From: an uncultured virus (IMG/VR IMGVR_UViG_3300006990_000018)
Taxonomy: Duplodnaviria > Heunggongvirae > Uroviricota > Caudoviricetes
IMG/VR virus record: IMGVR_UViG_3300006990_000018
Strand: one strand, 5' to 3'
DNA length: 64,000 nt
The translations under genes were made by a program, and so were the position numbers. Each line of letters opens with the position of its first letter. Positions within the stretch are counted from its first letter, which is position 1. This document shows positions 2,765 to 43,272 of this stretch, in pieces. Below the pieces are notes generated by a model. The model did not search any database. It was not told where the DNA came from and saw only the letters and a list, made by a program, of their open reading frames with translations.

Positions 2765-5700
2765 ATGGCGGTCCCCGCTACGCGTGCCGACCTCATCCCA
2801 CCCGTGGGTGCTGGGGCTGGCTTGCCGCTCACTCTCGTGTGGGCGGACGACCTCACCGACGCTGGCGGCGCTGGAACCGAAGGCTACGCCTTATTTGATT
2901 CGGGTTTGTGGAAGCCGCAGTCTGAAACGACTCTGGGCGTCCCAATCGCCGTCTCGGGAGCCTCCGTCTCCTACGCTCATGGGACCTTGCTGGATTTTGC
3001 CTCCATGAACTTCCTCGGCTTGACCGCTGAGACAGAGGCACCACGATTGAACTTTGGAAACGGTCGCCTTGAGCACGGACAAGCCATGCAAGACGCTGGG
3101 TTCGGTCGGCACTCCGCTTCCAACATGCGCTCGTTCGCTCCTGCGGCAACGGCAACCATCACCGAAGTCGGTCGCCATGTGGAGCACCCTATGAGGTCGC
3201 ATACCTCCGCCCGCCCTGCGAACCACACTTGGTTTCAGCCACGACACAACGCCATGGCCAACGCCGCCATGCCGTCCTATGACCTACAAATCGGCTCGCT
3301 CGTTGATGCTGATGTTGGGTCAATTGGGACGGTGGAAGCGTTCACCCACCGAGTCGCCACGGACCTTCCATCCAACGGCGTGGGAGCCACCTATGGAGAC
3401 TCGCATAACTCAGCCTACCTGTCGTCTCTATGGTCATGCACACTCAACAATATGTCGTTGGCCAGCGGCCTACAACCCGCCGAGTTCAAGTCCACCGACC
3501 CCAAGGCATTCTCGTCTCATTGGGGAACCAATCTCCAAGTTCAACAGGAGGTCATGGTGAGCGGCACCCCATTGAGCGCCCCTGATGCCCAGAACACAGC
3601 CCCCTCTCACGGACTTATTGACGGGGATAGGCTGACCCTTCCTGCGGAGACGACGCAGACAATCATGGTCAGCGACATTCACACCGAGACGGGGACTACG
3701 GCTCAAGAGGAATTGACCTTCCCACTTGGAGCGGCCTACCTCGGGAACCATGTTGTCGCTGACACCTGTGGTCTCATCGGTTATGAAGGGGTATTTTCAG
3801 CAACAGCGTTTGCGAGCGTCTCACGCAACGCCAACGCTCCCTTTGTTGTTGCACCCCCAGCACACCCCCTCATACCCGACACGGCTTGGAATGAGGACGG
3901 AGCGGCCCTCTATGCGGGATTGAACATTCAAGTCCATAGCGGCCTCCCCTTGCGTCGCAACGGAATGTCATGGAATACCGCCAGCGAACCCCTATTCGTC
4001 TATGGAAGCGATGGAACGGCAGTCATGCCTATGACCGAGGGGATGAGCACTACGGGCGCCCGCTCGTCATTCAAAGGCGCTTCGTTCACGCTGAACGCTA
4101 ATCAAACCCGATTCCACACGGGGCGCGTCGTCCACCACACACAAGGCGGCAATATCAACGACCTGTCGGTCCCTACGCTCAATTCTCAAACCACGGGTGG
4201 GTCAGCCGCCCCAAGCGCAACAACGACGAGCAAGGGGCCTTCTCGCTTCATTCTCGGGGACTCCTACACCTCGGGGGCATGGACGGCCACCGTGAACCTC
4301 TCGCAGGAGTTCCTCAAGGACCGCATCCCAACCAAGGTGAAGGTCGTCCCAACCCTGCTGGGCTATGACGAGGTTAGCGTGGCCGCAGGAGCCAGCCATC
4401 CATCATCTGACCCCATCACCTTCAAGCGCCCTATCGTGGATTATCATGTGCTGGTGAGCCTTTCGCCCAAGGACCGCATCAACGCCACCGTGAACCTCAC
4501 GAACTCACGCATTGGGAACCCAACCGCTCGGAACTTCCCCCAAGCGAGCCGTCTAACGGCCAACATGGACCTTGAGGACGAAGGGTGTGAAATCTTCCAT
4601 GCGGTGTTCCGCGTGGCTCCTACGACGCTTGAGAGGGTCTTTTTTGACCCGTTGAGTCCGTCCGCCGCTACTTGGGGTGTGAACACATCGGATTCGGAGA
4701 TGCCGAACACGGTCATGCCTCGCCACGACGCCGACTTCGGTGGCTGGGGCCTGCATCAATTGACACCGTTCCGCCCAATAGCGAACACCTCATGGGCGCA
4801 GGTTCCTCTCCTATGCGCCGCCATAGAGTCGGGTGGCTATTATCAGAGGGGAGGGGTCTCACACCTGTGGGATGCTGACACCTACGGCAAGGAACTCTTC
4901 GTCTCTGCTGACGCCATAGACGCCAGCCACTTTGAGGACTCGGTGTGGGGCAACGGGCAAGTGTGGGCTGACGGCACGGGTGCGCTCGCCAATCCACGGG
5001 GGAGCGAACTGCTGGTGTTCAAATACAACCCCTCCCTTGACGCTTTCCATGTCAATAACCACACCACGCCAACGACAACTCCGCTCTATGAACTCGCCAC
5101 GACGCACACCACGAGCGAACAGTCCAGCGCCATAACCGTCTCGGACAAGTTCAAGCAATATGAGGGCTGGTCAATCCACGATTGGGTATTCCCTCAAATT
5201 GAACTCATGCGATACCTCGGACGAGAGGACAAAGCGGCCGCTATGCACCCTCGGCATAGCGCCAACACGGGCGGAGACCCCCTGTTCCATCCGACGCTTC
5301 ATTGTTCATCTCTGCGCTTCATGGACGACGGACGCATGGCCATGGCGGCAGTCCAGCGAGACCACATCGGGAGCGAGGAGGAATACCCAGCAAGCGACAT
5401 CAATTATCCGTTCAACCCCGAGAGTGGGTCGGGTTCGGGGTGCCCCGCTGGCTACTATCGGAGTGGCGACACCTGCGTGCCGATTTCATCGGGAGACAAC
5501 CCCAACACGGAGTCGGAACACCTTGACCCTATCACGGGTGAGGTCATTGATGGGCCACCTCCTACACCCGATAACGGCAACGGAGAGGGGCATGTTGGTG
5601 GCGGTGATAACTTCAATTTGTCCCCATCATGGAGTCGCATCGTAGCGAACACATCGGGTCGTTCGCTGGTGCTCATGTGGAGCGAAGCCAAGGCGTTGAA

Positions 5701-8700
5701 CGGCAAGGCGCAAGGTGGGCGTGCCCTCTTTGAAGCCGAGGCGAAAACGATTGACGGAGACACATACTACACCCAAAATTGGACCTACAACGACTCGTGG
5801 TGGAGCGGCTCTCGCATCTCGTATTGGTATCAAGAAAGCGGTCAGCGGGCTATCCCTATCACCTATGGTTCCTACCCCGAAGTGCGTATGTCGCACGCCA
5901 ACCTGCCCCGTTGCCTGCCCCACCTGTTCACGAGCGGAGTGGTGCATGGCTATCCACTCCTCCAACCGATTGACCGCATCAGCACACCTGCTCCCATCCG
6001 AGATGTGGCGGGGACCGACGCTTGGGCGCAGGAGCGCTACGACTTCCTCCGCCGAACGCGATTCGTCCCCACGACGATTGGCTTCGCCGACTTCGGTGCT
6101 GGTGCAAATCCGCATCAAGAAATGGGCTGGTCTGGATGGTCGTTCCCACAGGGGCTATACGACCCAATAGGGTTCGGGAACAACACGGTGTTCTTCTCTG
6201 ACGCTCCCGAATCACTTGCAGTCGCAGATGGAGTCGCCATCACTCCGTCGTCGCAGGGCCAATGGGCGGGCTTCGCCTCGTCCATCGCATTCGGGCACAT
6301 GACGGGACCGATGACTGCGTTCAGCCACCACGGACCGCTCCACTACGGCATCATGAGCGCCGACCACCCATTCAAACCCGACCGAGTATGGAAGCAGGTT
6401 CACGGCGGCGTAGGCTATGACATTCCCCTTCACCTACTGGCCCCAGCCGAGGTCCATGTGCGCGCCCGTGCGGGTGGGCGGAACTCGCTTGACCTTGAAA
6501 TGGAGACTCCGTTCCACCGAACGGACACCTTGCACCTTGACGGAGCGGCCCTGTTCAATGTCGGGTTTGACCAAGGGGGCAAGGCGACGCCCGACGCCAG
6601 CCGAACTCAATTGGGACAATATCACCTGCGGACCAACCTTTGGACCGACGATTCTCGCAAGGCAGGGGCGCTCACAGGCGGCCTTTTGACCACGGATAGG
6701 GTGAGGGGGCCTACGGTCTCGGGAAACGGCTTAGAGGCGTTTTGGAATGACCATCCGACCGAACACTTCCACGCTGGTGCAATCCCCATCATGCCGAGCA
6801 CCGACTACGATTTGAACACGATTGAGAACGAGCGCTACGCCCCAGCAATTCTCGGTCGCATCCATGAAATCAGCAACCTTGACTATGTAGCCGTCGCCGA
6901 GCAATTGCAGTCGTCCGTTGATGTTCATGTCTCTCAAGGGGCACGGCCGATGTGGGACTCGGGTTCAATTGTGAGCGGGCGTGGAGTCGGAGAGCGAGAC
7001 ACCACCACAGCGTCCAGCGTCTCTCAAGTTCGGAGTGAAATGAACGGCGAGGACATTCCAACTGCTTCCGAGTCGGCTACAAGCCACGATAACGGGATGG
7101 GCAAGGGTCAGCGAGTGGTTCGCACACCCGAGGGCACCTTGCACATTTTCCCGATTGAACGGTCGGGGCAAGCATCATCCAGCAACCTCCCACGCTTTGT
7201 TCACTACACGAAACCGTTGCACGGCGACCTGTTTTGGAACAGGAAAGCACTCAAAGCCAACCCATCCAACGCCACCTATGACGGCAAGGATGAGGTGGGG
7301 TATTTCCTCGGAGCAAGTGATGTGCTTCGGTCGGCTACATTCGCAAGCGACAGCGACGGCACGATTCACGCCGTCGTGGAAGTGCAACTCTCAACCGCCT
7401 CACCAAACCACAGCCTGTATTATCACTACGCAAAGCGGAAATTGGTTTCCTATAACCCACATCCAATCTATGAGTGGGATTGGTCCGAGCACACACCCGT
7501 TTTGATTGGAACCTTGAGCCACGACCTACGCCAACCATCGCTCGTGTGCGACTCCAATGACCGCCTGCACTTGGTCGCCCGCTATGTCTCGGACTCCTAT
7601 TCCCACATCGTCTATGGGAGCAAATTGCCGAGCGAGGACGAGTTCCCAGCCATGCCCGCCTTCGTCCAAGACCCCGCTGAGTGGGACACCAACATTTGGA
7701 GCAAGGTGAACAAGTCGCTGGTCGCTGGCTTTGTTGTGGCGAGCGACAACTCTGACGCAGGCACATCCCATGGGGTGATTGACTGCGATAACCCAAAGGT
7801 GTGTTTGCTTGGGGACGATACCCCGTTCGTGTTTTTCAGAGCAGGTGCGGCGGCTGAATCGGCAACGCTGGGAGACCGAGCCAACGACGCCATCTATGTG
7901 AACATTGGACGCAACGATACGGGTGCCTACGACCCAGCGGGTCGGTATCGGTTTAACGGCAACTTGGCCATGCACGCCATTGGCGTCCACGGAACGGCTC
8001 AATACCCCAGCACCAAGGTCATTTACTACGACGCCATCATTGACGAGCGAGACCGAGCCTTCATCACGGTAGTCAAAGACGATAATGGCCGACGGGTCTT
8101 GATGAACTCATTTGACGCATCGCTCCCCTTGACGGACCAATACACCACGGCCAAGGGCCTCGGCTTAACCAAGGCCCTGTTCATCCCCAAGAACACCACC
8201 GTCCGCCCGAACTATCAGCACATCACGACGACGACCAACGGCAAGGGCGAGGTTCACATGATTCTTGGATTCACCCTTAGCGGCGATGTGGAGCAGGCGA
8301 CTGCGATATACCGAGATGGAATCACCGAGGCCACCATAGCACCCCTTCAATGGGCTACAACGCCAGCCAGCGACTCCACGGCTACACCACCCGCCGCCAT
8401 GTCCGACGGAGGCGGCTACGAGGCTCCTGTGAGCGCCAGCGACTATGAGTGGCCCGACGGGGGAACCCACCTCACCCCAACCACGGGAACCATCACCCAC
8501 TTCATGGAGGTGTGGATGCCGACCTTTGAGTTCAGCCAAGATGTGTCGGACCCAGACGAAGTGCTCCGCTCAATCAACATTCGCTGGCTCTCCGTGCCCT
8601 CGTTGAACTACGACGCAACCAACGGCTGGTTCCCTGTTGGGTCAGCACAGTCGCTCAACGGACACGAGGACTTCACCCACACAAACCCACAATTGAGGTA

Positions 8701-8881
8701 TCAGAGGTATTGGGGCTTTGATGCTGGTGAACTTGACCTGCGATGGGCGACCAACGAACAATCGTGGATGAACACCCCACACGGCGGTTCTCGGGTTTAT
8801 TTCCCCTACGCTGGCGGTTCATTCACGACCGTTGGCGAGGGTGAAATTGAAGGCGACGGCATCGCTGGTTGGCCTATTTGA
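2765..8881 (+). CDS. Giant (2038 aa) putative virion tail/receptor-binding protein
   Basis: Long ORF rich in G/T/S/P; propeller-like DSDGTIHAV and DSNDRLHLV motifs; function inferred. Confidence 0.6.
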   Translation: MAVPATRADLIPPVGAGAGLPLTLVWADDLTDAGGAGTEGYALFDSGLWKPQSETTLGVPIAVSGASVSYAHGTLLDFASMNFLGLTAETEAPRLNFGNGRLEHGQAMQDAGFGRHSASNMRSFAPAATATITEVGRHVEHPMRSHTSARPANHTWFQPRHNAMANAAMPSYDLQIGSLVDADVGSIGTVEAFTHRVATDLPSNGVGATYGDSHNSAYLSSLWSCTLNNMSLASGLQPAEFKSTDPKAFSSHWGTNLQVQQEVMVSGTPLSAPDAQNTAPSHGLIDGDRLTLPAETTQTIMVSDIHTETGTTAQEELTFPLGAAYLGNHVVADTCGLIGYEGVFSATAFASVSRNANAPFVVAPPAHPLIPDTAWNEDGAALYAGLNIQVHSGLPLRRNGMSWNTASEPLFVYGSDGTAVMPMTEGMSTTGARSSFKGASFTLNANQTRFHTGRVVHHTQGGNINDLSVPTLNSQTTGGSAAPSATTTSKGPSRFILGDSYTSGAWTATVNLSQEFLKDRIPTKVKVVPTLLGYDEVSVAAGASHPSSDPITFKRPIVDYHVLVSLSPKDRINATVNLTNSRIGNPTARNFPQASRLTANMDLEDEGCEIFHAVFRVAPTTLERVFFDPLSPSAATWGVNTSDSEMPNTVMPRHDADFGGWGLHQLTPFRPIANTSWAQVPLLCAAIESGGYYQRGGVSHLWDADTYGKELFVSADAIDASHFEDSVWGNGQVWADGTGALANPRGSELLVFKYNPSLDAFHVNNHTTPTTTPLYELATTHTTSEQSSAITVSDKFKQYEGWSIHDWVFPQIELMRYLGREDKAAAMHPRHSANTGGDPLFHPTLHCSSLRFMDDGRMAMAAVQRDHIGSEEEYPASDINYPFNPESGSGSGCPAGYYRSGDTCVPISSGDNPNTESEHLDPITGEVIDGPPPTPDNGNGEGHVGGGDNFNLSPSWSRIVANTSGRSLVLMWSEAKALNGKAQGGRALFEAEAKTIDGDTYYTQNWTYNDSWWSGSRISYWYQESGQRAIPITYGSYPEVRMSHANLPRCLPHLFTSGVVHGYPLLQPIDRISTPAPIRDVAGTDAWAQERYDFLRRTRFVPTTIGFADFGAGANPHQEMGWSGWSFPQGLYDPIGFGNNTVFFSDAPESLAVADGVAITPSSQGQWAGFASSIAFGHMTGPMTAFSHHGPLHYGIMSADHPFKPDRVWKQVHGGVGYDIPLHLLAPAEVHVRARAGGRNSLDLEMETPFHRTDTLHLDGAALFNVGFDQGGKATPDASRTQLGQYHLRTNLWTDDSRKAGALTGGLLTTDRVRGPTVSGNGLEAFWNDHPTEHFHAGAIPIMPSTDYDLNTIENERYAPAILGRIHEISNLDYVAVAEQLQSSVDVHVSQGARPMWDSGSIVSGRGVGERDTTTASSVSQVRSEMNGEDIPTASESATSHDNGMGKGQRVVRTPEGTLHIFPIERSGQASSSNLPRFVHYTKPLHGDLFWNRKALKANPSNATYDGKDEVGYFLGASDVLRSATFASDSDGTIHAVVEVQLSTASPNHSLYYHYAKRKLVSYNPHPIYEWDWSEHTPVLIGTLSHDLRQPSLVCDSNDRLHLVARYVSDSYSHIVYGSKLPSEDEFPAMPAFVQDPAEWDTNIWSKVNKSLVAGFVVASDNSDAGTSHGVIDCDNPKVCLLGDDTPFVFFRAGAAAESATLGDRANDAIYVNIGRNDTGAYDPAGRYRFNGNLAMHAIGVHGTAQYPSTKVIYYDAIIDERDRAFITVVKDDNGRRVLMNSFDASLPLTDQYTTAKGLGLTKALFIPKNTTVRPNYQHITTTTNGKGEVHMILGFTLSGDVEQATAIYRDGITEATIAPLQWATTPASDSTATPPAAMSDGGGYEAPVSASDYEWPDGGTHLTPTTGTITHFMEVWMPTFEFSQDVSDPDEVLRSINIRWLSVPSLNYDATNGWFPVGSAQSLNGHEDFTHTNPQLRYQRYWGFDAGELDLRWATNEQSWMNTPHGGSRVYFPYAGGSFTTVGEGEIEGDGIAGWPI

Positions 8882-9244: not shown

Positions 9245-9275
9245 GCCTAAATAGGTGGGGACACCTACAAGGGCC

Positions 9276-11036
9276 ATGAGTGTGGTCCGCATCAACATCC
9301 CCAGCAAGGGCAACCTGCCCGACCTGCGGGAGAAGGTGCGGCCCGACTTCCCCATGCCGTCCTTTCGCAAGTTCCAAGCGGAGGCGCTCAGCGTCGCCTA
9401 TTGGGCGCTTGAGAACGACGACTTTCACAACATCGTGATTCAAGCCCCCACGGGGATTGGGAAGTCCGCTATCGCCATGACGATTCAGTCGCAGTTCAAG
9501 TCGGCCTACCTACTCACACCGTCTTTGGGCCTTGCAGAGCAATACAAGACCGACTATGGCCACCGATTGGAAGAGGTGCGGGGTAGGTCCAACTTTGACT
9601 GTTGGGCGCGCTCTGGGACCGCTAAGAGCGCTCCTTGTTGGACGAGGACCAACGGGTCCTGCAAGCACTCCAAACGCAAGGAGGACGGTGGGGACCCCTG
9701 CCCGTATTATGAGCAACGCTTCGCCGCTGAGGACGCTTCCTTGACCCTCTCCAACCCTGCCTACTTGTTCCGTGCTGTGCGTGGCTACACCAACTTTGAG
9801 CAACGGGAGTTCGCCATCATAGACGAAGCGCACGACATGGAGGGGTTCATTCACGACCTCTTGGAGGTGCGATTGAGCGCCAAGGAATGGACCACCGTGT
9901 TCGGCAAGGGACGGTTCCCCAACCACCTCACCCCCAAGGATTGGAGGGCTGAAATCAAGGAACGCATTGAGGTCGCTCGCAAGGTCTTGGATAAGGCCGA
10001 GGCAGAACTCAACATCACCAAGTCTGAGAAGGAGGTGGAGCGCATCAAGGAGGCTGTTTCCAAAATGGAGACGGCGCTGGAAGTGCTCGTCCAGCCAAAC
10101 AATGTGCACATCTCGTTTGAGAACAACCGCTTCGGAGAGTTCCTCATCATCAAGCCCATTCGGGTGCGAAACTACGCCGCTGAAATCCTTGAGAGCGTCG
10201 CCGAGCGTCGCATTTTCCTCTCGGCCACCGTGCTTGACCTTGATACCTTCCTGCACGGGCTGGGGCTTGAGGACCAGCGCACGCTATACATCAACATCAC
10301 GCAGTCGCCCTTCCCGAAGGAGAACTTCAATGCTCACTATGTCCCATGCGGGTCTATGTCGTGGGGCAAGCGCAAGCACACCATCCCGAAGCAAGTCAAG
10401 GCTCTGGACGCCATTCTCAAGCAATACCCGAACAAGCGAGGGGTTATCCTACCGCATAGCCACGCCATCCGAAAGGAAGTGGTGGACGGACTGATTGCCG
10501 CTGGGCACGGAGACCGAATACGAACTCACGACTCCAACGCTCGTGCTCGGGACGAGGTGCTCAAGGACTTCTTCACCAGCAAACGAGACGACCTCGTGCT
10601 CATCAGCACCTATGTCGGGCAGGGCTTTGACTTCAAGGGCAAATTGGCTGAGTTCCTGTGCATCCTCAAGGTGCCCTACCTGCCGACCAAGGACCCCGTT
10701 ATCGCCGAGCGCATGATGCAGGACGAACTCGCATGGAGGCAGGTTCACGAGGCCACTCCCTCGTGTCCCTACGAGCCTCCCAGCAAATACAGCGGCGAAC
10801 TGTGCGGAGCGGGTTTCACCTGCCCTGCACCGTGTCAGAAGTGGTATCAATTGCAGACGGCACTCTCCATCGTGCAAGGCGCAGGGCGCGTCGTGCGTAG
10901 CCCCGACGATGTGGGCCACCTGTTCATCCTTGACGGCGGCTGGGCGCGATTCGCTCGGTCCAGCGGGCATCTGCTCCCGTCTTGGTTCAAGGACAATGTG
11001 CGAGAGGCTCCACGCTGGTTGAAACGACAGTTATAG
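9276..11036 (+). CDS. XPD/DinG-family SF2 helicase with FeS cysteines
   Basis: APTGIGKS, DEAH, LSAT, GQGFDF and QGAGRVVRS motifs, four Cys after motif Ia; start moved to the ATG about 22 nt after the TATA box. Confidence 0.92.
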   Translation: MSVVRINIPSKGNLPDLREKVRPDFPMPSFRKFQAEALSVAYWALENDDFHNIVIQAPTGIGKSAIAMTIQSQFKSAYLLTPSLGLAEQYKTDYGHRLEEVRGRSNFDCWARSGTAKSAPCWTRTNGSCKHSKRKEDGGDPCPYYEQRFAAEDASLTLSNPAYLFRAVRGYTNFEQREFAIIDEAHDMEGFIHDLLEVRLSAKEWTTVFGKGRFPNHLTPKDWRAEIKERIEVARKVLDKAEAELNITKSEKEVERIKEAVSKMETALEVLVQPNNVHISFENNRFGEFLIIKPIRVRNYAAEILESVAERRIFLSATVLDLDTFLHGLGLEDQRTLYINITQSPFPKENFNAHYVPCGSMSWGKRKHTIPKQVKALDAILKQYPNKRGVILPHSHAIRKEVVDGLIAAGHGDRIRTHDSNARARDEVLKDFFTSKRDDLVLISTYVGQGFDFKGKLAEFLCILKVPYLPTKDPVIAERMMQDELAWRQVHEATPSCPYEPPSKYSGELCGAGFTCPAPCQKWYQLQTALSIVQGAGRVVRSPDDVGHLFILDGGWARFARSSGHLLPSWFKDNVREAPRWLKRQL

Positions 11037-11555: not shown

Positions 11556-12082
11556 ACATTTTCTTCACCGACGAACACCCCACCATCGCCGCTCGCAACC
11601 TGTGCGACGACCATGTGGTCTCGCAGTTCAAAGAGTCCATTCAAATGCTCGTGGCCGCCGCTTTGCTCCGTGGAGCGGACCCCAACGCCATGCCCCTCAC
11701 AACTTCGGGCCGTCCGCACCGTGGAGGCTACAAACATCACCCCTGCACTCGCTGGGCGTCTGAGAACCCAGCGAATTGGAATTGGCTCTGCGACCACGCA
11801 CTCGCCATCGGAGCGGAGTTCCGTATGCGCTTTGACAACGACACCAGCATTCTCCACGACCAAATCCTCCTGCTCGCCTGCTCCCGAGACACCATCCTCA
11901 GCCACTTTGACGAGGAGTGGGGCATGACAGAGCCAGCCCGAGCGCTGAACCAAAGCATCGGCGAGAACCTTGACCTGCTCGGAGACGACCTCACCACGGT
12001 GGAGGCATACCGCCTCTATTATCAGCGGGACAAGCGCTCGTTCGCCGAGTGGAAGTATTCGCGTGCTCCCGATTGGTTTTGA
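11552..12082 (+). CDS. Pyrimidine-dimer DNA glycosylase / endonuclease V-like protein
   Basis: MNIF...AA..LCD.HV.....E..QML and HPCTRW motifs, AYRxYY near the C-terminus. Confidence 0.8.
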   Translation: MNIFFTDEHPTIAARNLCDDHVVSQFKESIQMLVAAALLRGADPNAMPLTTSGRPHRGGYKHHPCTRWASENPANWNWLCDHALAIGAEFRMRFDNDTSILHDQILLLACSRDTILSHFDEEWGMTEPARALNQSIGENLDLLGDDLTTVEAYRLYYQRDKRSFAEWKYSRAPDWF

Positions 12083-12120
12083 GCGATGGGTTAATATAGG
12101 AGTGGACGCTACCAATGACC

Positions 12121-12276
12121 ATGACCCCCCAAGAAATGATGCAAGCCAACGCCGTTATCGTCATGGACGAGCAAGAGGACATTCCCGTGGAATGCCCCCT
12201 GTGCACCGACTCCGACGCTCCTGTGTGCAACGAGACCGTCTGCGACGAGTGCAAGCACGACGCCACATGGTCGTGA
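12121..12276 (+). CDS. 51-aa Cys-rich protein (not in the ORF track)
   Basis: Promoter-linked ATG; MTPQEMMQ..CPLC..C....CDEC. Confidence 0.6.
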   Translation: MTPQEMMQANAVIVMDEQEDIPVECPLCTDSDAPVCNETVCDECKHDATWS

Positions 12277-12309
12277 AGGCTCAATAACCCGTGCCCCCAT
12301 CGTTGAGGC

Positions 12310-14115
12310 ATGGGCGACGAGAACGAACGCTTCCAGCGCATCGTGAGAGCGCCTGCTGACGACCCGTTCATCATCAGCCCACCCAAGGTCCTGCTGGACG
12401 AGGTGGAACGGCTGGGACAGGACCCACGGCGTCCAAGGACGGCCGTTGCACGCTGGGCCTCCCGTCTATGGGCCGAGACCCAAAGGGAGCGCATACGGCG
12501 TGCTCCTGCGCCCTCCATGAATAACGCTCCATCCGAGAAGGAACTCATGGAACGCCCCGCTCACTACCCGACCGACTTCGGCCTTGGCCTCATCCCGTTC
12601 CCGAACGAGGTGGGTGGATGGGTGCTGGATAAGACCGCCACGACCTGCTACACAAGCCTCTCCGTCCCCCGCCCGTTTGACCCACACCTACACGGAGACC
12701 TAACCGCAGAGACCGTTGGGTTCGGCTACATGTATCACGGGACCTCTCCGTTCCCCGACCGATACGACATCGTGAACCGAAGGGGTGGAGGTCCACGAGG
12801 CGGGTTCGCTTTCACCAGCGGACCTACCGAGGGCAATTATCCCTCCACTATCCTACCCTCACCGACCTTCAACCTCGGCGACCTTGGGTTTAGCGACGGC
12901 GGCTGGAATCCCGAGGGCCTGCAATACACGAACCGCCCCCGTCAAATGCGACTCGGCGGTCTCCGCAACGGGTGGCCGCATCAAGTGTTCTTCGTCCGCT
13001 CACGGCAGGTATTCTTTCGCAACCTATACGGCCCAATAGCCTCGGACGAGGCAACGCCACGAGCACCCACCGTTGTGCTGAACGGAAGCAAATCCATTCA
13101 CGGCGTTCTCTCAGTTTCATCTCGCCACGAACTCAACGCGCCCCGTCGGCTGACGGTTCGTATTTCATCGGTCGTCGGTCGGAGAGCGGGAGTCGCCCAA
13201 GTCGGGGACACCATCCAAGTCTATGCGGCTCCACGGCGCTGGGCGAACCCACCGCTGATTTTCACGGGCTTCGTGTCCGACCTTGAGGAGACCACGAATG
13301 AGGTCGTCTTGACCTGCCTTGACCCGCTCGGGTTCCTCACCAACGAGACCATTCTGAACGATGAACTGCTCGTCCGAGGGGACGCCGCATCGGTGATAAA
13401 GGGCATCGTGGCTCAATCGTCATACGCTCCGCCTATTGGCCGTATTAGCACCGAGAGCCTCGTGTCCGTGCCGTCGGGCCTCGTGCTCAAGGGCAAGACC
13501 TTGCTGGACGCAGTTCAAACCGTGCTCGGTTTCATCAACATAGCACCAGCGCCCATGACGATTTATGCCGACGGCAAGGGCTACATTCACCTACGCTCGC
13601 TCGCCGAGGTGGACGACTCAAGCCTCACTCCTCTCGTGGCTGGGCGTATGCCCCGCACAGCCGTGCCGCAGGACTTTTATCCAACCAGCGTGGAACGGGT
13701 CAAGGGCGACCTTGACATTTTCAATGTGATAACGGTTCAGAACAACTCGGCTGGGGTCTCATTCACCTACCCACCCGAGGACGACGCCTCATATCCCCGC
13801 CGTCCAGTCCATCGGGTTGTTCAAGAATCCACAGTCCAAGACGAACGGCAAGCAGAGCAGTTCGCCCGCTTGATGTTGGCCAATAACGGGCGAACCCAAG
13901 AGCAATTCATCATTGAGGGCCTCCCAGAACGCTTTGACATTCGGGCGGGTGATGTGATGGAGTTTGCATCGTCGGCGGGTATCGCTGGCCGCCACCGAGT
14001 CTTTTCGGTTGGTTGGGAATTGACACCCGAAGGGGCGCGTATGACGCTCTCCGTGGGCCGCCAATCGGCGAACCTTGTGGCCACCTTGCGATTCGCAAGC
14101 GGCCTGTCGTTGTGA
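12310..14115 (+). CDS. Baseplate hub / tail tip protein (gp27/GpD/Tal-like)
   Basis: IFTGFV..LEE....LTCLD, YADGKG, NVITV and DIRAGDV..RVFSV..ELT..MTLSVG pattern typical of hub proteins. Confidence 0.7.
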   Translation: MGDENERFQRIVRAPADDPFIISPPKVLLDEVERLGQDPRRPRTAVARWASRLWAETQRERIRRAPAPSMNNAPSEKELMERPAHYPTDFGLGLIPFPNEVGGWVLDKTATTCYTSLSVPRPFDPHLHGDLTAETVGFGYMYHGTSPFPDRYDIVNRRGGGPRGGFAFTSGPTEGNYPSTILPSPTFNLGDLGFSDGGWNPEGLQYTNRPRQMRLGGLRNGWPHQVFFVRSRQVFFRNLYGPIASDEATPRAPTVVLNGSKSIHGVLSVSSRHELNAPRRLTVRISSVVGRRAGVAQVGDTIQVYAAPRRWANPPLIFTGFVSDLEETTNEVVLTCLDPLGFLTNETILNDELLVRGDAASVIKGIVAQSSYAPPIGRISTESLVSVPSGLVLKGKTLLDAVQTVLGFINIAPAPMTIYADGKGYIHLRSLAEVDDSSLTPLVAGRMPRTAVPQDFYPTSVERVKGDLDIFNVITVQNNSAGVSFTYPPEDDASYPRRPVHRVVQESTVQDERQAEQFARLMLANNGRTQEQFIIEGLPERFDIRAGDVMEFASSAGIAGRHRVFSVGWELTPEGARMTLSVGRQSANLVATLRFASGLSL

Positions 14116-14316
14116 AGAAAAGGTGAGGCGCAGGGAGCGAGAACTTTGCCCTGTTGGGATTCTCGGTATGCGCCTCGGGGCGAGCACAGGGAGCGAGAAC
14201 TTGGCCCTACACGGGATTCTCGGTATGTGCTCTAAGCGTTCCCTCGCCGCCTATCCATCCCATCTCCCCACAGGTGTGGTTCTTGGGCGTGGCGGGTTCG
14301 GCTTGGGTCTGCTCTG
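14116..14316 (-). ncRNA. Putative structured ncRNA of about 200 nt with two tandem domains
   Basis: Intact minus-strand promoter, no usable ORF, duplicated ~51-nt covarying domain, U-tract end. Confidence 0.6.
14125..14232. repeat. Tandem ~51-bp hairpin repeat (14125-14176 and 14182-14232)
   Basis: Shared core GGGAGCGAGAACTT.GCCCT...GGGATTCTCGGTA closed by GAGGCGCA/TGCGCCTC and GAGCACA/TGTGCTC. Confidence 0.9.
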
Positions 14317-14359
14317 ATTAGTCCTATGAGCCACTCCTATATGAAGGTGTCGCTCAAAA
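14317..14359 (-). promoter_or_regulatory. Minus-strand family promoter
   Basis: Reverse complement reads TTTGAGCGACACC-TTCATATA-GGAGTGG. Confidence 0.75.
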
Positions 14360-14615
14360 GGGTTGGACCCCCGCCGACGCTTCACCATTCAGCAAAAACG
14401 CACCCCCTCAACACCTTGCGATGTGAGGTTGGGTGGGCGTGCGGCGGGGTGGCCCCCAAGGGTTCCGTGTGCATGAGGGCGGTGGAATTGCTCCGCCTTG
14501 CATCCGCTCGTAGGTATTTCACCTTCCGCTAAACACATCGGTCCCTTGAGGGCCTGTCCTTGAATCCCCCCGACTCGCATCGGGAGGTGCTTCGGTCGGG
14601 GTTGTTGCCCCAACA
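14357..14615 (-). ncRNA. Putative structured ncRNA of about 260 nt
   Basis: Promoter with no ATG; GNRA-capped hairpins (GCGA, GCAA); 5'/3' terminal pairing; UUUU end. Confidence 0.62.
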
Positions 14616-14659
14616 ATCTATCGTAGCGGTCGCCCCTATATCAATGTGTCGGTCTCAAA
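14616..14659 (-). promoter_or_regulatory. Minus-strand family promoter
   Basis: Reverse complement reads CCGACACA-TTGATATA-GGGGCGACCG-CTACGATAGA. Confidence 0.8.
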
Positions 14660-14763
14660 GGTTTAATTCAAGGGGCTTTGGGCAAAAATCCGACATGAAG
14701 AAACACTCGGCATATAGGTTCTGAGCGTTCTCAAGGCCAAAAATCGCAAAAAGCCCCCATCAT

Positions 14764-14864
14764 TAGCCCCCCTATGGGGGGCTACCCCCAATGATTGAAA
14801 CAGACTTACACACTAACACACACACACAACAAACAAACTGTGTGTATGAAAGAGGAGAGGGGTC
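14764..14864. other. Candidate replication origin element
   Basis: Perfect 9-bp inverted repeat at 14764-14784 plus a (CA)n/(TG)n element homologous to 44321-44373, just upstream of the helicase gene. Confidence 0.4.
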
Positions 14865-14909
14865 GGTCTGCATCATTGTTAAGAGGGTGGGGGTAGGCTT
14901 GAGGTGAGC

Positions 14910-16904
14910 ATGGCCCCCGAAATTATCGTCAGTCAATCCACCGAGTCGTCGTCCGACTTCCTCTTTGAAGCCGCCGACCTACCCGTGAAATTGACCTTCC
15001 TGTCGTCCACAAAGGGACGCATGGAGTTCAGCGCTGAGGTGGATGGCGAACCCAAGGGCAAGGTCAATGTCCTGTCCCAGCACTCCATCGCTCGGCTCGC
15101 CAAGTCGTCGCTCAAGGACGAGGGACTCAAGGACGAGTTCACCGCCACGATGCTCAAGGCTGGCGTGATTCTCCGAGAAGGCACCTATGTCGTCGCCACC
15201 ATGGAGGACAAAACAACCGCCGAAGTCATGTCGCTTGAGGGCGAGTCATCCACCTACGGGGACATTGAGCCAGCGACCATCGGACGATTCCTCGGCGAGC
15301 GCTTCCTGTTGGACCGTATCAACGAGATTCTCCACGAGAGTCGTGAGACCCCGTTCGTCGGAGACGATGCTAACCTGCTCCTCACCTTCCTCGTGTTCTT
15401 GTCCTGCAAGACGGACAACCCGCTCAACCTTGAGATGATTGGGCAGTCATCCAGCGGCAAGACCTACATGACCTTGACCGCTCGCAACGGCTTCCCCAAG
15501 TCCATGATTATGGTTCTCGCTGGGGCCTCCAAGGAGGCGCTGAAATACGACTACGACGAGGTGGATGAGGACGGAAACTTCATCGTCAATGTGGACGGTC
15601 GTTGCATCGTCGTCTTGGAAAAGGACGAGTCATTCGCATTCATTCGCAAGATGAAGCCCATCATGTCGGGAGACGACACGGAACTCGTTTGGAAAACTCC
15701 CATCAAGAATGAGTTATCGGGGGAAATAGAGACGAGGGACTTCATCATCAGAGGTCGTCCGTCGTTCATCACGCTCACCACTCGCAACCCCAGCGAGCAG
15801 GAGCAAATCACACGGCAACTCATCATGACACCCGACACGACGGTGGAGAAGGTGAATGAAGTGGTCAAGAACGCCTTGCTGGCCAAGGCACGACCCGAGA
15901 CCTTCAAGGTGCACCCCGACCTCAAAATGCTTCAAGCGTCCATGCTTTCACTCAACCGCTATCGGGTCCGCAACATTTTCGCCCCGCTCATGGTGGACTT
16001 CTTCCCCGCTCGCAACGCTCAGCACCAGCGAGACATCGGCAAGGTGCTCTCCATCATTGACGCCGTGGCTCTGCTCCACCAGCACCAGCGACCTGTGCAA
16101 AAGGACGAGCACGGGGACGAATACCTGCTGGCCTCCGTGGAGGATAATGTGATAGGGCTTATGCTCTGCGACCTCGTTCTCCGAGCCAGCCTGTCGGGGG
16201 TGCCCGACGACACTTGGACCGTATATCAGCAAATGACCGCCATGGAGGAAGCCAAGCGCCCGCTCACCGAGGACAACATTCTCCAATGGCTCGGCATCCA
16301 CGCCTTCACCATCAGCAAGAACGCCCTCAAGGAGAAGCACCTCCCAACGCTTGAGGACGCTGGCCTCATTGAGGTCGCTCGTCGTGGCGGAGGGCGCGGT
16401 GGCGGCAAGAAGGCATACCGCCTCGTCAAATCTCGCATCGGTCTCATGGACGACTACGCCCTGTCCCCCCTGTTCGTGGAAGCGGCGGCGGCGAACCTAC
16501 ACGACCTCGCCAACGAATACAACGATGTTTTGACCAGCGCCGAACCTGCCGCTCACCGATTCCCATTGAAGGCGAAGGACCAATCCCTTCTCCGCTCCAT
16601 CGGATGCCCCAGCAAGGAAGCGTCCGAGGTTTGGCGGTCTTTGTTCCTCCCATCCTACCTACGCCCTGCTGGACGCTCAACGCTCCTGTGGGACATCGTA
16701 GGAAAGGACTCCAAACACCGAGACGGATTGTTCGGTGGGGACGCTTGGTTCAACGCTACGAGCGACGCAACAGCGGCATTGAGCAAGCGCCGAGAAGTCA
16801 AGGAAGCCATCAAGACTGCCTCGCAGTCCACCACTTTGGATAACGAGGACCTATGGGAAGCGATGATGGATGCACACCTGTCGGGACTTGAGGATGATGA
16901 TTGA
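14910..16904 (+). CDS. MCM-like AAA+ ATPase, putative replicative helicase, with a wHTH-like C-terminal region
   Basis: Walker A GQSSSGKT, IVVLEKDE Walker B-like motif, ITLTT sensor, ITRQ arginine finger; adjacent to the SSB. Confidence 0.7.
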   Translation: MAPEIIVSQSTESSSDFLFEAADLPVKLTFLSSTKGRMEFSAEVDGEPKGKVNVLSQHSIARLAKSSLKDEGLKDEFTATMLKAGVILREGTYVVATMEDKTTAEVMSLEGESSTYGDIEPATIGRFLGERFLLDRINEILHESRETPFVGDDANLLLTFLVFLSCKTDNPLNLEMIGQSSSGKTYMTLTARNGFPKSMIMVLAGASKEALKYDYDEVDEDGNFIVNVDGRCIVVLEKDESFAFIRKMKPIMSGDDTELVWKTPIKNELSGEIETRDFIIRGRPSFITLTTRNPSEQEQITRQLIMTPDTTVEKVNEVVKNALLAKARPETFKVHPDLKMLQASMLSLNRYRVRNIFAPLMVDFFPARNAQHQRDIGKVLSIIDAVALLHQHQRPVQKDEHGDEYLLASVEDNVIGLMLCDLVLRASLSGVPDDTWTVYQQMTAMEEAKRPLTEDNILQWLGIHAFTISKNALKEKHLPTLEDAGLIEVARRGGGRGGGKKAYRLVKSRIGLMDDYALSPLFVEAAAANLHDLANEYNDVLTSAEPAAHRFPLKAKDQSLLRSIGCPSKEASEVWRSLFLPSYLRPAGRSTLLWDIVGKDSKHRDGLFGGDAWFNATSDATAALSKRREVKEAIKTASQSTTLDNEDLWEAMMDAHLSGLEDDD

Positions 16905-16936
16905 CCTTCATATAGGTGGGGTGAGAAGTGGGGGTC

Positions 16937-18094
16937 ATGTCAGCAAAAAACCTGCCTGCCTCCGTGAAAAGCCGCCTACAACCCTTCATTGACAAGGGGA
17001 TTCAGAACGGTATTTTCCAAGACGCCCAGCCTGTCGTGAACCTATACCGCAAGAAAGCGGCCGAACTCAAAGACACCGTGAGTGAACTCGGTGGGATGAA
17101 GTCCAAGAACGCTCAGATGTTCGTGGCGAACTGCGTCATGACCGACCTCTCCGCCATGCTTCGTCAGAAGTCCTTCATGGTCCACCTTGATGTTTGGACC
17201 GTGGACTCCCGAATGACCCGCACAGGCCGAGCCATGGCCAATGTGTTCGGCCAAGCCATCGTTGAGGATGGCGACTCCGTGATGGACTCCGCTCTGTTCA
17301 AGATGTCCCTATGGGACGAGGACGCCGCTCTCGCCGACGACCTCGTGGGCGGTTGCACCTACAACGCATCAGTCTCCTGTCGCAACCTTGACGCCGAAGT
17401 GCTGGACTTCCGCCCACTCTCGGGCATGACCACCTTCACCGAGGAGGAATACGAGCACGGCGCCTCTGCCGATGTGCTCCAAGCCACCTTTGACATCACT
17501 CCAATTGCTGAATTGGAGAACGACATTTCACGCAACCGCAACGACTACCGCATGGTGCAAGCCACGGTCTCCTACGCTGGCGTTCAGACCTCCAAGACGG
17601 GCAACACCTTCGGGAAAATGCTACTCAAGGACGAGTCCACCATGACCATTGAGGCCATTGAATCGGGCGAGGGCTTGATGCTCAACGCTCTCTGCGACAC
17701 CACCACCGCCAACCGCTTCGGCAAATACAGCGAGGTGCTCGCTCTCATCACCACTTCCATGTCCGAGCAATACGGACTCTCCGCCACCATTGAGTGCGCT
17801 GTGGGTCTCGTTGTGATTGCTCCGCCCAAGGTTGAGGCTCCCAAGTCGGGAGACGACGCCGAGGACAACGCATCGGACTACTTCAACAACGCTCCAACCA
17901 TTGACCTTGACGACGACGAGGACGCATCGGAAGAGACCACGCAAGGCGAAGGACTACCCGAAACTGAAAGCGAAGCCGAGGAGGCCGTTGAGTCTCCGCA
18001 GGCAGAAACCTCAGACGGGACACAGGCCAAAGCCGACGACGAGGGCTGGACCGAAGGCTCCGACGACGAAGAATGGGACGATGATTGGGACTGA
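16937..18094 (+). CDS. RPA-like OB-fold ssDNA-binding protein with acidic tail
   Basis: KMSLWDEDA and LLKDES OB-fold motifs; D/E-rich tail ending WDDDWD. Confidence 0.7.
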   Translation: MSAKNLPASVKSRLQPFIDKGIQNGIFQDAQPVVNLYRKKAAELKDTVSELGGMKSKNAQMFVANCVMTDLSAMLRQKSFMVHLDVWTVDSRMTRTGRAMANVFGQAIVEDGDSVMDSALFKMSLWDEDAALADDLVGGCTYNASVSCRNLDAEVLDFRPLSGMTTFTEEEYEHGASADVLQATFDITPIAELENDISRNRNDYRMVQATVSYAGVQTSKTGNTFGKMLLKDESTMTIEAIESGEGLMLNALCDTTTANRFGKYSEVLALITTSMSEQYGLSATIECAVGLVVIAPPKVEAPKSGDDAEDNASDYFNNAPTIDLDDDEDASEETTQGEGLPETESEAEEAVESPQAETSDGTQAKADDEGWTEGSDDEEWDDDWD

Positions 18095-42469: not shown

Positions 42470-42860
42470 GACCGACAGACACGCCCAGACACGCCGCCCC
42501 TGCCCCTTCGGGGGTGGGGACCCTGCGAGGTCCCTCCCAGCGGGAGCAAGGCCCACAGGGACGCCCACAGGGCCACGCATGACCCCCAGCGGGAGCGAGG
42601 CCCCCAAGGAGCGCCCGAGTGCACGCAAGGTCCGCCCGAAAGGCCCGCCGCCCATATCCGATGGGCTGACGGCCTATAAAGGTTTTGGACCTACACTTTC
42701 CTTTTCTCAAGAGAACGCCACGCCGAAAGGTTTATAGGGTGTCAGCGCCCGTGTTCAAGTGGAGAGACGACTTCCAACGGGGCGCGTTGGAGACGGCATC
42801 TCCCCGAGTGCCCTCGCCCCTGCCCCGACCCCCACGGGTCCTCGCATCAATCTAAGGGAA

Positions 42861-42927
42861 CGGCTGACACCCTATAAAGGTTTCGTTCACCGATAGGTTT
42901 AATAGGGGGGACCCCCTACGATAAAAC
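42861..42927. promoter_or_regulatory. Back-to-back divergent promoter pair (type example)
   Basis: GCTGACACCCTATAAAGGTTTCG (minus-strand TATA) abuts CCGATAGGTTTAATAGGGG (plus-strand TATA). Confidence 0.7.
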
Positions 42928-43269: not shown

Positions 43270-43272
43270 AAC

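What the first reader, a model, noticed from the sequence alone, without database searches (positions are those of the whole stretch)
14357..14659. Second promoter-driven structured RNA (~260 nt) on the minus strand, sharing the CTACGATAGA initiator
Seen: the minus-strand promoter CCGACACA-TTGATATA-GGGG..CTACGATAGA has the same initiator variant as the 45 kb RNA, whereas protein genes use CTACG(A/G)TTAAAC-ATG. The predicted transcript has tetraloop hairpins CUCCCGAU-GCGA-GUCGGGGG and CCUCA-CAUC-GCAA-GGUG-U-UGAGG. It also has AGGU-GAAAU-ACCU, GGCGG/CCGCC, terminal GUUGGG/UCCAAC pairing and a UUUU end. It runs against the genome-wide + strand coding bias. Inference: a functional ncRNA, transcribed divergently from the helicase gene and next to an origin-like element.
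Basis: partly seen in the sequence, partly recalled or inferred. Interest (0 to 1): 0.85.

Follow-up and report, generated by a model that had tools for sequence, protein, structure and literature searches.

The report
Modular non-coding RNA gene in marine virus
An uncultured marine tailed virus, probably one that infects archaea, carries a small gene with its own promoter that most likely makes a folded RNA rather than a protein, and the first 60 bases of that RNA recur almost unchanged in related viruses whose versions are otherwise unrelated.

Summary
Window 14644-14356 (minus strand) has a consensus viral promoter followed by about 220-260 nt of non-coding, strongly folding sequence.

The promoter looks archaeal. 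It is a TATA-like box with a fixed 30-nt spacing to the ATG of leaderless genes (26 of 32 sites). The same spacing puts the RNA 5' end at G14614, the first base of a terminal hairpin.

The 75-aa TTG frame is not conserved.

The RNA belongs to a family defined only by its 5' module: G(A/U)UUGU, hairpin 1, CCGAAG, then hairpin 2, often with a GNRA loop. I found the module in about 25 viral contigs, once per genome. It is in the window and in 4 of 8 other near-complete genomes.
- 95.7% of cells are paired.
- 11 of 17 pairs have compensatory changes.

Bodies, position and orientation differ between lineages, as with a "moron" cassette.

No Rfam family matches. No expression data could be obtained. 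The function is unknown; my best guess is a trans-acting RNA whose 5' module is a protein-binding or stabilising handle.

The "helicase" neighbour, the terminal pairing and the origin link are not supported. The scan had already flagged a longer sibling RNA in another genome.

The parts
14645..14659 (-). Upstream promoter element TTTGAGACCGACACA (T-run plus a BRE-like CCGAC). The same kind of element precedes most promoters of the window.
   Evidence: Reading it as BRE-like is an inference from recalled archaeal promoter architecture.
14637..14644 (-). TATA-like box TTGATATA
   Evidence: Motif enrichment. There is a fixed 29-31 nt offset from the first base of the box to the ATG at 26 of 32 plus-strand sites.
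14617..14626 (-). Promoter-proximal element CTACGATAGA, probably not transcribed
   Evidence: It is replaced by other sequences in sibling promoters with unchanged spacing.
14595..14614 (-). Predicted RNA 5' end (G14614) and hairpin 1: GUUGGGG-CAACAA-CCCCGAC
   Evidence: Offset 30 from the TATA box. In alignment A4 the helix is 97.8% paired; two of its seven pairs change on both sides and two on one side.
14588..14594 (-). Single-stranded linker CGAAGCA. CCGAAG is invariant in all 14 aligned family members.
14566..14587 (-). Hairpin 2: CCUCCCGAU-GCGA-GUCGGGGGG, with a GNRA tetraloop
   Evidence: 9 of its 10 modelled pairs show changes on both sides across the family.
14360..14565 (-). Lineage-specific body: a multi-branched fold with the GCAA-loop and GAAAU-loop hairpins, the GGCGG/CCGCC helix and the long helix GGCCCUCAAGGG/CCCUUGGGGGCC
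   Evidence: It is shared only with the closest relatives.
14394..14398 (-). T5 run: a possible early termination site, giving an RNA of about 217-221 nt
   Evidence: It is absent from variant B. Oligo-T termination is recalled knowledge of archaeal RNA polymerase.
14356..14359 (-). T4 run: the likely 3' end, giving an RNA of about 256-259 nt. It overlaps the TTTTGAGCGA upstream element of the next promoter.
14118..14345 (-). Second minus-strand unit. TATA box TTCATATA at 14345-14338; predicted start A14315; about 198 nt of non-coding RNA. It contains two tandem three-tier hairpins (14232-14182 and 14174-14127) and ends at UUUU 14121-14118, three bases beyond the stop codon of the convergent 601-aa gene.
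   Evidence: (z = -3.2)

Best explanation
The locus is a stand-alone gene for a stable, structured, non-coding RNA. It runs from 14614 to about 14356 (or 14394) on the minus strand and is transcribed from a consensus viral TATA-box promoter of archaeal type.

It belongs to a modular RNA family. An almost invariant 5' module of about 60 nt is fused to bodies that differ completely between virus lineages. The module is a 5'-terminal hairpin, a single-stranded CCGAAG, and a second hairpin that is often GNRA-capped.

The cassette (promoter, RNA, T-run or hairpin terminator) sits once per genome, at changing places and in changing orientation, and is missing from about half of the related genomes. 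That is how a phage "moron" behaves.

Most likely mechanism (inferred, not shown): the RNA acts in trans. The 5' module is the recognition core. It would be a handle for a conserved viral or host protein, and at the same time a 5' cap-like hairpin that protects the RNA from decay. The fast-changing body would carry a lineage-specific accessory function in the contest between virus and host.

Shown here: the promoter context, the absence of coding, conservation and covariation of the 5' module, and modularity.

Inferred: the transcription start and end, stability, action in trans, and a protein partner.
For: **Promoter and start**
- The TATA-like box is enriched.
- 26 of 32 plus-strand sites place an ATG 29-31 nt after its first base.
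- The same offset falls on G14614, the first base of hairpin 1.
- In seven promoter contexts the conserved block begins at offset 26-27, although the sequence between box and block differs.

**Not coding**
- The TTG frame stops after 18 codons in L004/L081, is frameshifted in L014/L072 and diverges in L012/L082.
- The indels are not multiples of three.

**Structure**
- z = -4.2 to -4.7 on the minus strand against -2.6 on the plus strand.
- In a MAFFT alignment of 10 variants, 96.9% of cells are paired, and no slid register exceeds 69.5%.
- In the model-fitted alignment of 14 sequences (13 distinct), 95.7% are paired, 11 of 17 pairs change on both sides, and 0 of 500 shuffles reach that.
- Frequent U-G pairs would be C-A mismatches on the other strand (for example columns 39/66, U-G in 10 of 13).

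**Family**
- The exact 20-mer is in 13 viral contigs, plus 3 chance hits.
- The hairpin-2 pattern adds 8 contigs.
- Covariance models add L024, L025, L028 and G006.
- There is one copy per genome.
- It is present in G002, G003, G004 and G006. It is not detected in the complete genomes G005, G007, G008 and G009.

**Modularity**
- The bodies share no similarity beyond the first 26-52 nt.
- D has a replaced body and C has a 186-nt insertion.

**Stand-alone units**
- G006 and E end in a hairpin plus T6. L025 and the window end in T-runs followed by a new promoter.
Against: - There is no expression evidence for this locus. No RNA run was listed, so the start, end, strand and abundance are all inferred.
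- The body is supported by only three effectively distinct sequences.
- The 14-sequence alignment is fitted to the model, which favours pairing. The four most divergent members score only 20-35 bits.
- None of the 68 window ORFs tracks the presence of the RNA across 8 genomes. A dedicated viral partner is therefore not indicated.
- In F, H and G the RNA runs straight into a downstream gene (portal or giant ORF) without an obvious terminator or new promoter. The module might therefore be primarily a 5' leader element.
- The identical 26-nt stretch in viruses whose proteins are only about 63-65% identical could also reflect recent recombination rather than selection.
Confidence: 0.5

Rival explanations
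1. The unit acts in cis. What matters is the act of transcribing leftwards from 14644, or the back-to-back arrangement with a plus-strand TATA-like site near 14710-14718. This would regulate the neighbours: antisense or collision control of the convergent 601-aa gene, promoter competition with the 666-aa gene, or activation of a nearby origin-like element. The RNA itself would be a by-product.
For: - The promoter is 65 nt from a divergent CATATAGG site.
- A conserved hairpin and a CA/TG inverted repeat lie between it and the 666-aa gene.
- In 4 lineages the RNA abuts the 601-aa gene.
Against: - The conserved part is the transcript's 5' end, with RNA-type covariation and G-U pairs.
- Siblings sit at unrelated positions and in both orientations.
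- T-runs end the unit before it reaches the 601-aa gene.
- G005 and G008 keep the hairpin and the CA/TG element without the RNA.
- Cumulative GC skew shows no turn at 14.7 kb.
Confidence: 0.12
2. It is a virion-assembly or DNA-packaging RNA, working like phi29 pRNA. The invariant 5' module would dock on a conserved structural protein such as the portal, terminase or a tail protein.
For: - Sibling RNAs lie inside the morphogenesis module. In G002 and H the order is TerL, small ORFs, RNA, portal. In G003 and G006 the order is 601-aa tail-like gene, RNA, giant ORF.
- In the window it follows the 601-aa gene, which has a weak PHROG hit to a tail protein (E 1.5e-6).
- There is one copy per genome.
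Against: - There is no match to any Rfam family, and I recall that Rfam includes a pRNA family.
- Four complete related genomes lack a detectable copy while keeping the structural genes.
- Loop-loop complementarity between copies is not conserved (inspection).
- The E copy lies among small early-type genes.
Confidence: 0.08
3. It is a selfish or decaying remnant. The 5' module would be the leader of a structural operon (as upstream of portal in F and H) that was copied to this site by recombination. Here it drives a functionless transcript.
For: - Mosaic replacement, insertion and inversion occur among close relatives.
- The distribution is patchy.
- The body is unrelated to those of its siblings.
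Against: - The body keeps its helices through compensatory changes in A, B and C.
- It folds far better than shuffles.
- The promoter is a full consensus.
- The cassette is retained in all five contigs of the closest lineages.
Confidence: 0.1
4. It is a small protein gene: the 75-aa TTG frame at 14616-14389, or another frame.
For: The TTG lies 2 nt upstream of the position where leaderless genes have their ATG. The frame is open for 75 codons.
Against: - The frame is cut to 18 codons in C, frameshifted in B and divergent in D.
- No frame on either strand is shared by A-D beyond the residues encoded by the invariant module.
- The start would be TTG in a leaderless context.
Confidence: 0.02
5. 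The virus infects a bacterium. The promoter is read by a sigma-70-type or phage-type polymerase, so the transcript starts elsewhere. It would still be a non-coding RNA.
For: - TTGATA-18 nt-TAGATT scores 9 of 12 as a sigma-70 site.
- TATAGG resembles the end of T7-type promoters (recalled).
- One sibling contig was binned in a bacterial MAG.
Against: - Only the TATA-like box and its 30-nt spacing are common to all promoters. TACGAT-like -10 elements occur in a minority.
- F has CCCCC after the box where a T7-type start would need G.
- There are no Shine-Dalgarno sequences before most genes.
- PolB is closest to those of haloarchaeal tailed viruses.
- The 666-aa protein resembles an all-archaeal cluster.
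- No RNA polymerase gene was recognised.
Confidence: 0.05

Closest known systems
Earlier finding of this scan, e1-6030203: a 445-640 nt promoter-driven RNA between terminase and portal in another genome (here G002 / L068)
   Same: - The first 52 nt align at 94% identity with one 3-nt insertion.
- The spacing from TATA box to start is the same.
- No Rfam family matches.
   Different: - The body is unrelated and longer.
- It is on the plus strand, directly upstream of the portal gene.
- Its reported abundance was not checked here, and part of that report later fell.
ROOL and GOLLD RNAs, large ornate RNAs of bacteria and their phages (recalled)
   Same: It is a virus-borne, highly structured non-coding RNA of unknown function with GNRA loops, and it is variable between relatives.
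   Different: - No covariance-model match.
- It is much smaller (about 260 nt).
- It has an archaeal-type promoter.
- The family is defined by a short 5' module rather than by a conserved whole fold.
Bacteriophage phi29 pRNA (recalled)
   Same: It is a virus-encoded structured RNA of a few hundred bases with its own promoter. Sibling copies lie between terminase and portal.
   Different: - No Rfam match.
- It is not universal in the clade.
- No conserved intermolecular loop pairing is seen.
- No evidence of a packaging role.
Phage "morons": autonomous promoter-gene-terminator cassettes inserted between late genes (recalled concept)
   Same: It has its own promoter and terminator, lies between structural genes, and varies in position, orientation and presence among relatives.
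   Different: The product is an RNA, not a protein.
HK022 put and lambda nut 5' RNA modules (recalled)
   Same: Two adjacent hairpins lie at the very 5' end of a transcript and are conserved, while the downstream sequence varies.
   Different: - The window copy ends at T-runs with no gene behind it.
- G006 and E copies end in strong hairpin-T6 terminators. This argues against a read-through function.
- Put and nut are bacterial systems.

Membership tests
Any Rfam 15 family (including pRNA, ROOL, GOLLD, 6S, RNase P, SRP, C/D and H/ACA sRNAs, and self-cleaving ribozymes) | Covariance-model score at or above the family's gathering threshold | tested here: not met
   - Whole window at gathering thresholds: 0 matches.
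- 14000-15000 at E up to 10: three microRNA models at 15-20 bits, against thresholds of 71-88.
- 10 sibling loci: one hit of 26 bits against a threshold of 70.
- 42500-47000: 0 matches.
Family-1 viral RNA (defined here) | 5' module: G(A/U)UUGU, hairpin 1, CCGAAG, hairpin 2 | tested here: met
   The window scores 78.1 bits with R1 and 74.3 bits with R2. It was among the sequences used to build the model, so the score is partly by construction. The independent support is that the exact module recurs in other contigs.
Family-1 viral RNA (defined here) | The module begins at the predicted start, 26-27 nt after the first base of a TATA-like box | tested here: met
Archaeal TATA/BRE promoter with leaderless start | A-T-rich box centred about 26 nt upstream of the start, with a fixed distance to the start codon of leaderless genes | tested here: met
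   26 of 32 plus-strand sites have an ATG at offset 29-31. The start itself was not mapped.
Archaeal TATA/BRE promoter with leaderless start | Transcription by archaeal RNA polymerase with TBP and TFB in an archaeal host | not testable with these tools
   The host is unknown. Indirect support only: PolB is nearest to haloarchaeal tailed viruses at 24% identity, and there is an archaeal cluster for the 666-aa protein.
Small protein gene | Reading frame conserved among relatives | tested here: not met
phi29-type packaging RNA | Present in all members of the virus group, and binds portal or terminase | tested here: not met
   Not detected in 4 of 8 related near-complete genomes. Binding was not tested.
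Magroviruses (viruses of marine group II archaea) | MCM helicase, RadA-like ATPase, sliding clamp and chaperonin alongside PolB, RFC and primase. Source: passages found by term search in PMC5434244. | tested here: inconclusive
   PolB, an RFC-like AAA protein and a primase-polymerase are present. No MCM or chaperonin was recognised in the 64 kb. PolB relatives are unnamed marine contigs of 76-86 kb.

The most novel reading that the evidence does not exclude
The invariant 5' module is the docking handle of a virus-specific ribonucleoprotein. The family would then be the first class of functional structured RNAs in archaeal tailed viruses. It could be an assembly or packaging RNA analogous to phi29 pRNA, since siblings sit between terminase and portal or next to tail genes. 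Or it could be an RNA decoy against a host defence or RNase, with the swappable body tuned to the host lineage.
Probability: 0.15. Interest if true: 0.85.

Novelty: new variant of a known kind. Interest (0 to 1): 0.6.

Why it matters
Structured non-coding RNA genes are almost undescribed in archaeal viruses. My searches of the paper library found nothing on promoters or non-coding RNAs of marine archaeal tailed viruses.

Here a whole set of promoter-driven RNAs appears in an abundant, uncultured clade of marine viruses of about 80 kb. There are at least three families, and the window alone carries three units. The family studied here shows an unusual mode of evolution: a nearly frozen 60-nt 5' module attached to freely exchanged bodies, moving around the genome like a moron.

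This gives three things:
- a concrete, short and testable RNA element for pull-down, structure probing or cryo-EM;
- a promoter and leaderless-start model for these viruses;
- a covariance model for finding more members in ocean metagenomes and metatranscriptomes.

Tried and rejected
- **Expression:** no RNA holder was listed for window 12000-17000, so no reads could be laid.
- **Own genome:** none is held.
- **Phage collection:** blastn of 14000-15000 found no match.
- **Host copy of the module:** the exact 24-mer occurs in GTDB genome contigs only in one contig. That contig has the same length and coordinates as a viral contig and was binned in a MAG. Shorter or imperfect host matches could not be searched.
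- **Antisense target:** no complementarity to the rest of the window beyond what shuffled RNAs give. The longest perfect match is 13 nt.
- **Partner protein by phylogenetic profile:** none of the 68 window ORFs follows RNA presence across 8 genomes.
- **Body pattern scan:** the scan for the body found only the A, B and C contigs.
- **Second-round model R2:** it found no further members in 63 sources.
- **K-turn, C/D box, H/ACA pocket, bulge-helix-bulge and tRNA-like readings:** considered by eye and dropped, because none was conserved across variants. These were not computed.
- **Pairing of the 5' UUGUUG with the CAACAA loop:** it is present in A-F but is not kept in G or G006.
- **666-aa neighbour:** no Pfam or PDB sequence match.
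- **601-aa protein against the G002 terminase:** unrelated.
- **Literature:** one search was wasted by a loose term setting.

Full report
**What the window is**

The window is 57% G+C. Nearly all long ORFs are on the plus strand. It encodes:
- a family-B DNA polymerase;
- an RFC-like AAA protein;
- a primase-polymerase;
- an XPD-like helicase (9255-11036);
- a PD-(D/E)XK nuclease;
- a CobS/CobT-like pair;
- a tape-measure-like protein;
- a 1671-aa PKD-bearing protein.

Most other proteins match nothing in Pfam or PHROGs. No tRNA gene was found. The polymerase is closest, at only 24% identity, to those of haloarchaeal tailed viruses. Its closer relatives (43-91% identity) all come from unnamed marine contigs, many of 76-86 kb.

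No whole genome is held for the window. Related IMG/VR records are complete 80-82 kb genomes, some with direct terminal repeats.

I do not file the virus under magroviruses. The passages found by my term search in PMC5434244 list MCM, RadA and a chaperonin as typical, and I did not recognise any of these in the window.

**The promoter**

A TATA-like decamer (consensus TTAATATAGG) is strongly enriched. There are 73 sites with up to 2 mismatches, against 21.1 +/- 4.7 in shuffles.
- Of the 32 plus-strand sites picked by a stricter pattern, 26 have an ATG 29-31 nt after the first base of the box (20 at exactly 30). Each opens an ORF of 35 to 730 codons.
- Three others have a longer leader with a GGAG-type motif.
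- The sequence between box and ATG is not uniform.

An A-T-rich box centred about 26 nt upstream of the first base of leaderless mRNAs is the textbook archaeal arrangement (recalled). It fits the gene content.

A sigma-70 scan also finds TTGATA-18-TAGATT at the target, scoring 9 of 12. The genome-wide pattern does not support a bacterial reading.

**The target**

On the minus strand the box TTGATATA (14644-14637) is followed by GGGGCGACCG-CTACGATAGA and then TTGTTGGGG.
- Offset 30 falls on G14614.
- No ATG follows.
- From 14614 the sequence folds at -125.2 kcal/mol. The z-score is -4.2, or -4.7 for a slightly longer stretch, and 0 of 200 shuffles fold as well.
- The opposite strand gives z = -2.6.

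The unit ends at a T4 run (14359-14356), which is also part of the TTTTGAGCGA element of the next promoter. A T5 run at 14398-14394 could end it earlier.

No Rfam family matches the region, the window or the sibling loci.

**Not a protein**

The TTG frame of 75 codons starts 2 nt before the leaderless position, so it deserved a test. Four variants of the locus exist in close relatives (neighbouring proteins 92-100% identical).
- In C (L004/L081) the frame stops after 18 codons.
- In B (L014/L072) it is shifted by indels that are not multiples of three.
- In D (L012/L082) the whole downstream part is replaced.

No frame on either strand is shared beyond the residues encoded by the invariant first 50 nt.

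**A family defined by its 5' end**

The alignment of the four variants showed that the first 50 nt or so are identical while the rest is mosaic.
- The exact 20-mer of hairpin 1 was found in 16 IMG/VR loci. Thirteen are true copies, and 3 are chance hits inside a coding region.
- The 24-mer was found in 7 metagenome contigs.
- In GTDB genomes the 24-mer was found only in a contig identical in length and coordinates to one of the viral contigs.
- A pattern for hairpin 2 gave 39 loci. Twenty are family members, including two new types (G, H) with compensatory changes in hairpin 1. The other 19 are unrelated hairpins.
- A covariance model built from 7 sequences (R1) then found weaker members in L024, L025, L028 and genome G006 (20-27 bits). 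I accept these four because each is preceded by a TATA-like box at the same offset, each keeps GUUUGU...CCGAAG, and each lies directly after the homologue of the 601-aa gene.
- A second model (R2) found nothing further in 63 sources.

The consensus is G(A/U)UUGU, hairpin 1 (7-8 bp), CCGAAG, 1-5 nt, then hairpin 2 (5-10 bp). The loop of hairpin 2 is GCGA, GGGA or GAAA in most members.

| Alignment | Sequences | Cells paired | Covariation | Control |
|---|---|---|---|---|
| MAFFT | 10 variants | 96.9% | not listed here | no slid register exceeds 69.5% |
| Model-fitted | 14 (13 distinct) | 95.7% | 11 of 17 pairs change on both sides | 0 of 500 shuffles reach any of the five measures |

The second alignment leans towards the structure by construction.

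Many pairs are U-G (for example 10 of 13 at columns 39/66). These would be C-A mismatches on the other strand, so the fold belongs to the strand that the promoter reads.

The conserved block starts at offset 26-27 from the box in seven different promoter contexts. In those contexts the intervening sequence may be GGGGCGACCGCTACGATA, CCCCCACCTGCTGTCATG, GTAGTGGTTGTTCACATA or GGGGCGACTGATAGGGTA. Conservation therefore begins with the transcript, not with the promoter. I take this as the strongest argument for an RNA-level function in the absence of expression data.

**Modularity and mobility**

Beyond the first 26-52 nt the bodies of the lineages share nothing detectable.
- Lengths range from about 215 nt (D) through about 260 (window) and 330 (G006) to 445-650 (F, E, G).
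- Within the window's own lineage, C has a 186-nt insertion between the module and the body, and D has a different body.
- The window-type body is found only in A, B and C. Its helices are kept with a few compensatory changes, for example G-C to U-A in the long helix and C-G to U-A in GGCGG/CCGCC. Only three effectively distinct sequences support this.

The position changes between lineages:

| Lineage | Position of the RNA |
|---|---|
| Window lineage | between the 601-aa and 666-aa genes, minus strand |
| L024/25/28 | same interval, plus strand |
| G003, G006 | directly after the 601-aa homologue and before a 2000-2400-aa ORF |
| G002, H | downstream of the large terminase gene and several small ORFs, directly before the portal gene |
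| G004 | among small genes at 45.4 kb |

The G004 place is syntenic with the window's "45 kb RNA", which belongs to another family.

Each genome has one copy. Four complete genomes of the same clade (G005, G007, G008, G009) have none detectable, although all keep the 601-aa and 666-aa genes.

Several copies are clearly closed units. G006 and E end in a hairpin plus T6. L025 and the window end in T-runs followed by a new promoter. In F, H and G the RNA runs into the next gene without an obvious stop. There the module may head a long leader.

**What it does**

This cannot be shown with the data at hand.

The features are those of a moron-like accessory cassette: own consensus promoter, own stop, one copy, patchy presence, shifting place and orientation, and a fast-changing body. 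The frozen 5' module, a terminal hairpin plus a single-stranded invariant CCGAAG and a GNRA-capped hairpin, looks like a recognition handle. It would also shield a triphosphate 5' end.

I therefore favour a stable trans-acting RNA that works through a protein bound to the module, with the body providing a lineage-specific function in virus-host interplay (confidence 0.5 for the whole statement, about 0.85 for "independent non-coding RNA gene").

Points against or left open:
- No window ORF follows RNA presence, so the partner would have to be a core viral or a host protein.
- No antisense target exists in the window.

Rival readings are listed with their odds: cis-acting transcription, a packaging or assembly RNA, a remnant, a small protein, and a bacterial host.

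- The neighbour at 14904-16904 is not a recognisable helicase. It has no Pfam or PDB match. The protein atlas places it with clusters carrying PF27228, one of them all-archaeal with HTH/TrmB domains.
- The "origin-like element" is a conserved hairpin (TAGCCCCCC/GGGGGGCTA, 14764-14784) plus a CA/TG inverted repeat (14817-14848). It is kept upstream of the 666-aa gene or downstream of the 601-aa gene in distant relatives that lack the RNA. It may equally be part of a 165-nt leader of the 666-aa gene, starting behind a CATATAGG site at 14711-14718. That is my inference.
- GC skew gives no sign of an origin there.

**Novelty**

- Rfam 15 has no such family.
- The paper library returned nothing on promoters or non-coding RNAs of these viruses. 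"magrovirus" gave 22 papers, and two of them, searched for promoter, TATA, non-coding and intergenic, had 0 occurrences. "archaeal virus" + "structured RNA" + "metagenom" gave 4 papers, judged from their listed titles and abstract openings, and none concerns such RNAs. "Poseidoniales" + "leaderless" + "TATA" gave 0.
- Supplements could not be seen.
- The scan itself had already flagged the longer sibling in G002 (finding e1-6030203). Its claim of high abundance is a lead that I could not test.

Noticed in passing
window 14345-14118 (-): A second minus-strand unit lies directly behind the target. It has a TTCATATA box, a predicted start at A14315 (cAGAGC) and no ATG. It would give about 198 nt of RNA, with z = -3.2. 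The RNA has two tandem 48-51-nt three-tier hairpins (14232-14182 and 14174-14127). Their outer stems covary between copies and relatives (GCGCA/UGCGC, GAGCACA/UGUGCUC, GACGCA/UGCGUC) and their loops vary (AACA, GUGUA, GUGCA, GAGA). It ends at UUUU, 3 nt from the stop codon of the convergent 601-aa gene.
   Followed up: partly
window 45011-45400 (+); L110: The "45 kb RNA" starts AGAGCGCACCUGUCCC. It has a 97% identical homologue in contig L110, where a second RNA with the same first 18 nt but a different body lies in tandem before it. In G004 the syntenic site holds a family-1 RNA instead. So RNA cassettes are exchanged between loci.
   Followed up: partly
L092, L093/L113, L100, L114: A third family of CTACGATAGA-driven non-coding RNAs starts ACAGAGGCGACAA. 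These are about 300 nt long with a conserved 3' half, and occur in relatives whose 666-aa protein is 72-73% identical.
   Followed up: no
window, 32 plus-strand sites (for example 126, 2474, 11046, 22486, 52216): The promoter architecture is TTTGAgCGA, N4-5, TTAATATAGG, then 20 nt, then ATG. 26 of 32 sites have the ATG at offset 29-31, so most genes appear leaderless. Three sites (8971, 57478, 63062) have GGAG-containing leaders.
   Followed up: yes
window 14764-14848 and 44338-44444: A CACACACA...TGTGTGTG inverted repeat occurs twice. At 14.8 kb it lies next to a conserved G/C hairpin upstream of the 666-aa gene. At 44.3 kb it lies next to a very A-T-rich stretch. Either could be an origin or another protein-binding site.
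   Followed up: partly
window 2765-8881 (+); L162 7573-14802: A giant ORF of 2038 aa has no Pfam or PHROG match. It has a 2409-aa homologue in G003 (36-44% identity) and homologues in 7 of 8 related genomes.
   Followed up: no
L084 (genome contigs PBLX01000067.1): A 55,503-bp contig filed in a MAG labelled Legionellales has the same length and coordinates as IMG/VR contig 2786546787_000011 of this virus clade. It is probably a viral contig mis-binned into a bacterial MAG.
   Followed up: no
window 12310-14115 (+): The 601-aa protein (weak PHROG hit to a tail protein) has homologues in all 9 related records examined, G001-G009 (42-100% identity; G001's is the 100% copy). It is the immediate neighbour of the family-1 RNA in four separate genome arrangements.
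   Followed up: partly
L014/L013/L004, insertion relative to window 14662: Close relatives carry an extra block of about 270 nt between the RNA promoter and the 666-aa gene side. In them the RNA is driven by the other promoter class of this virus (CCTATAAAGGTT...CCGATAG-TTTAATATAGG).
   Followed up: no
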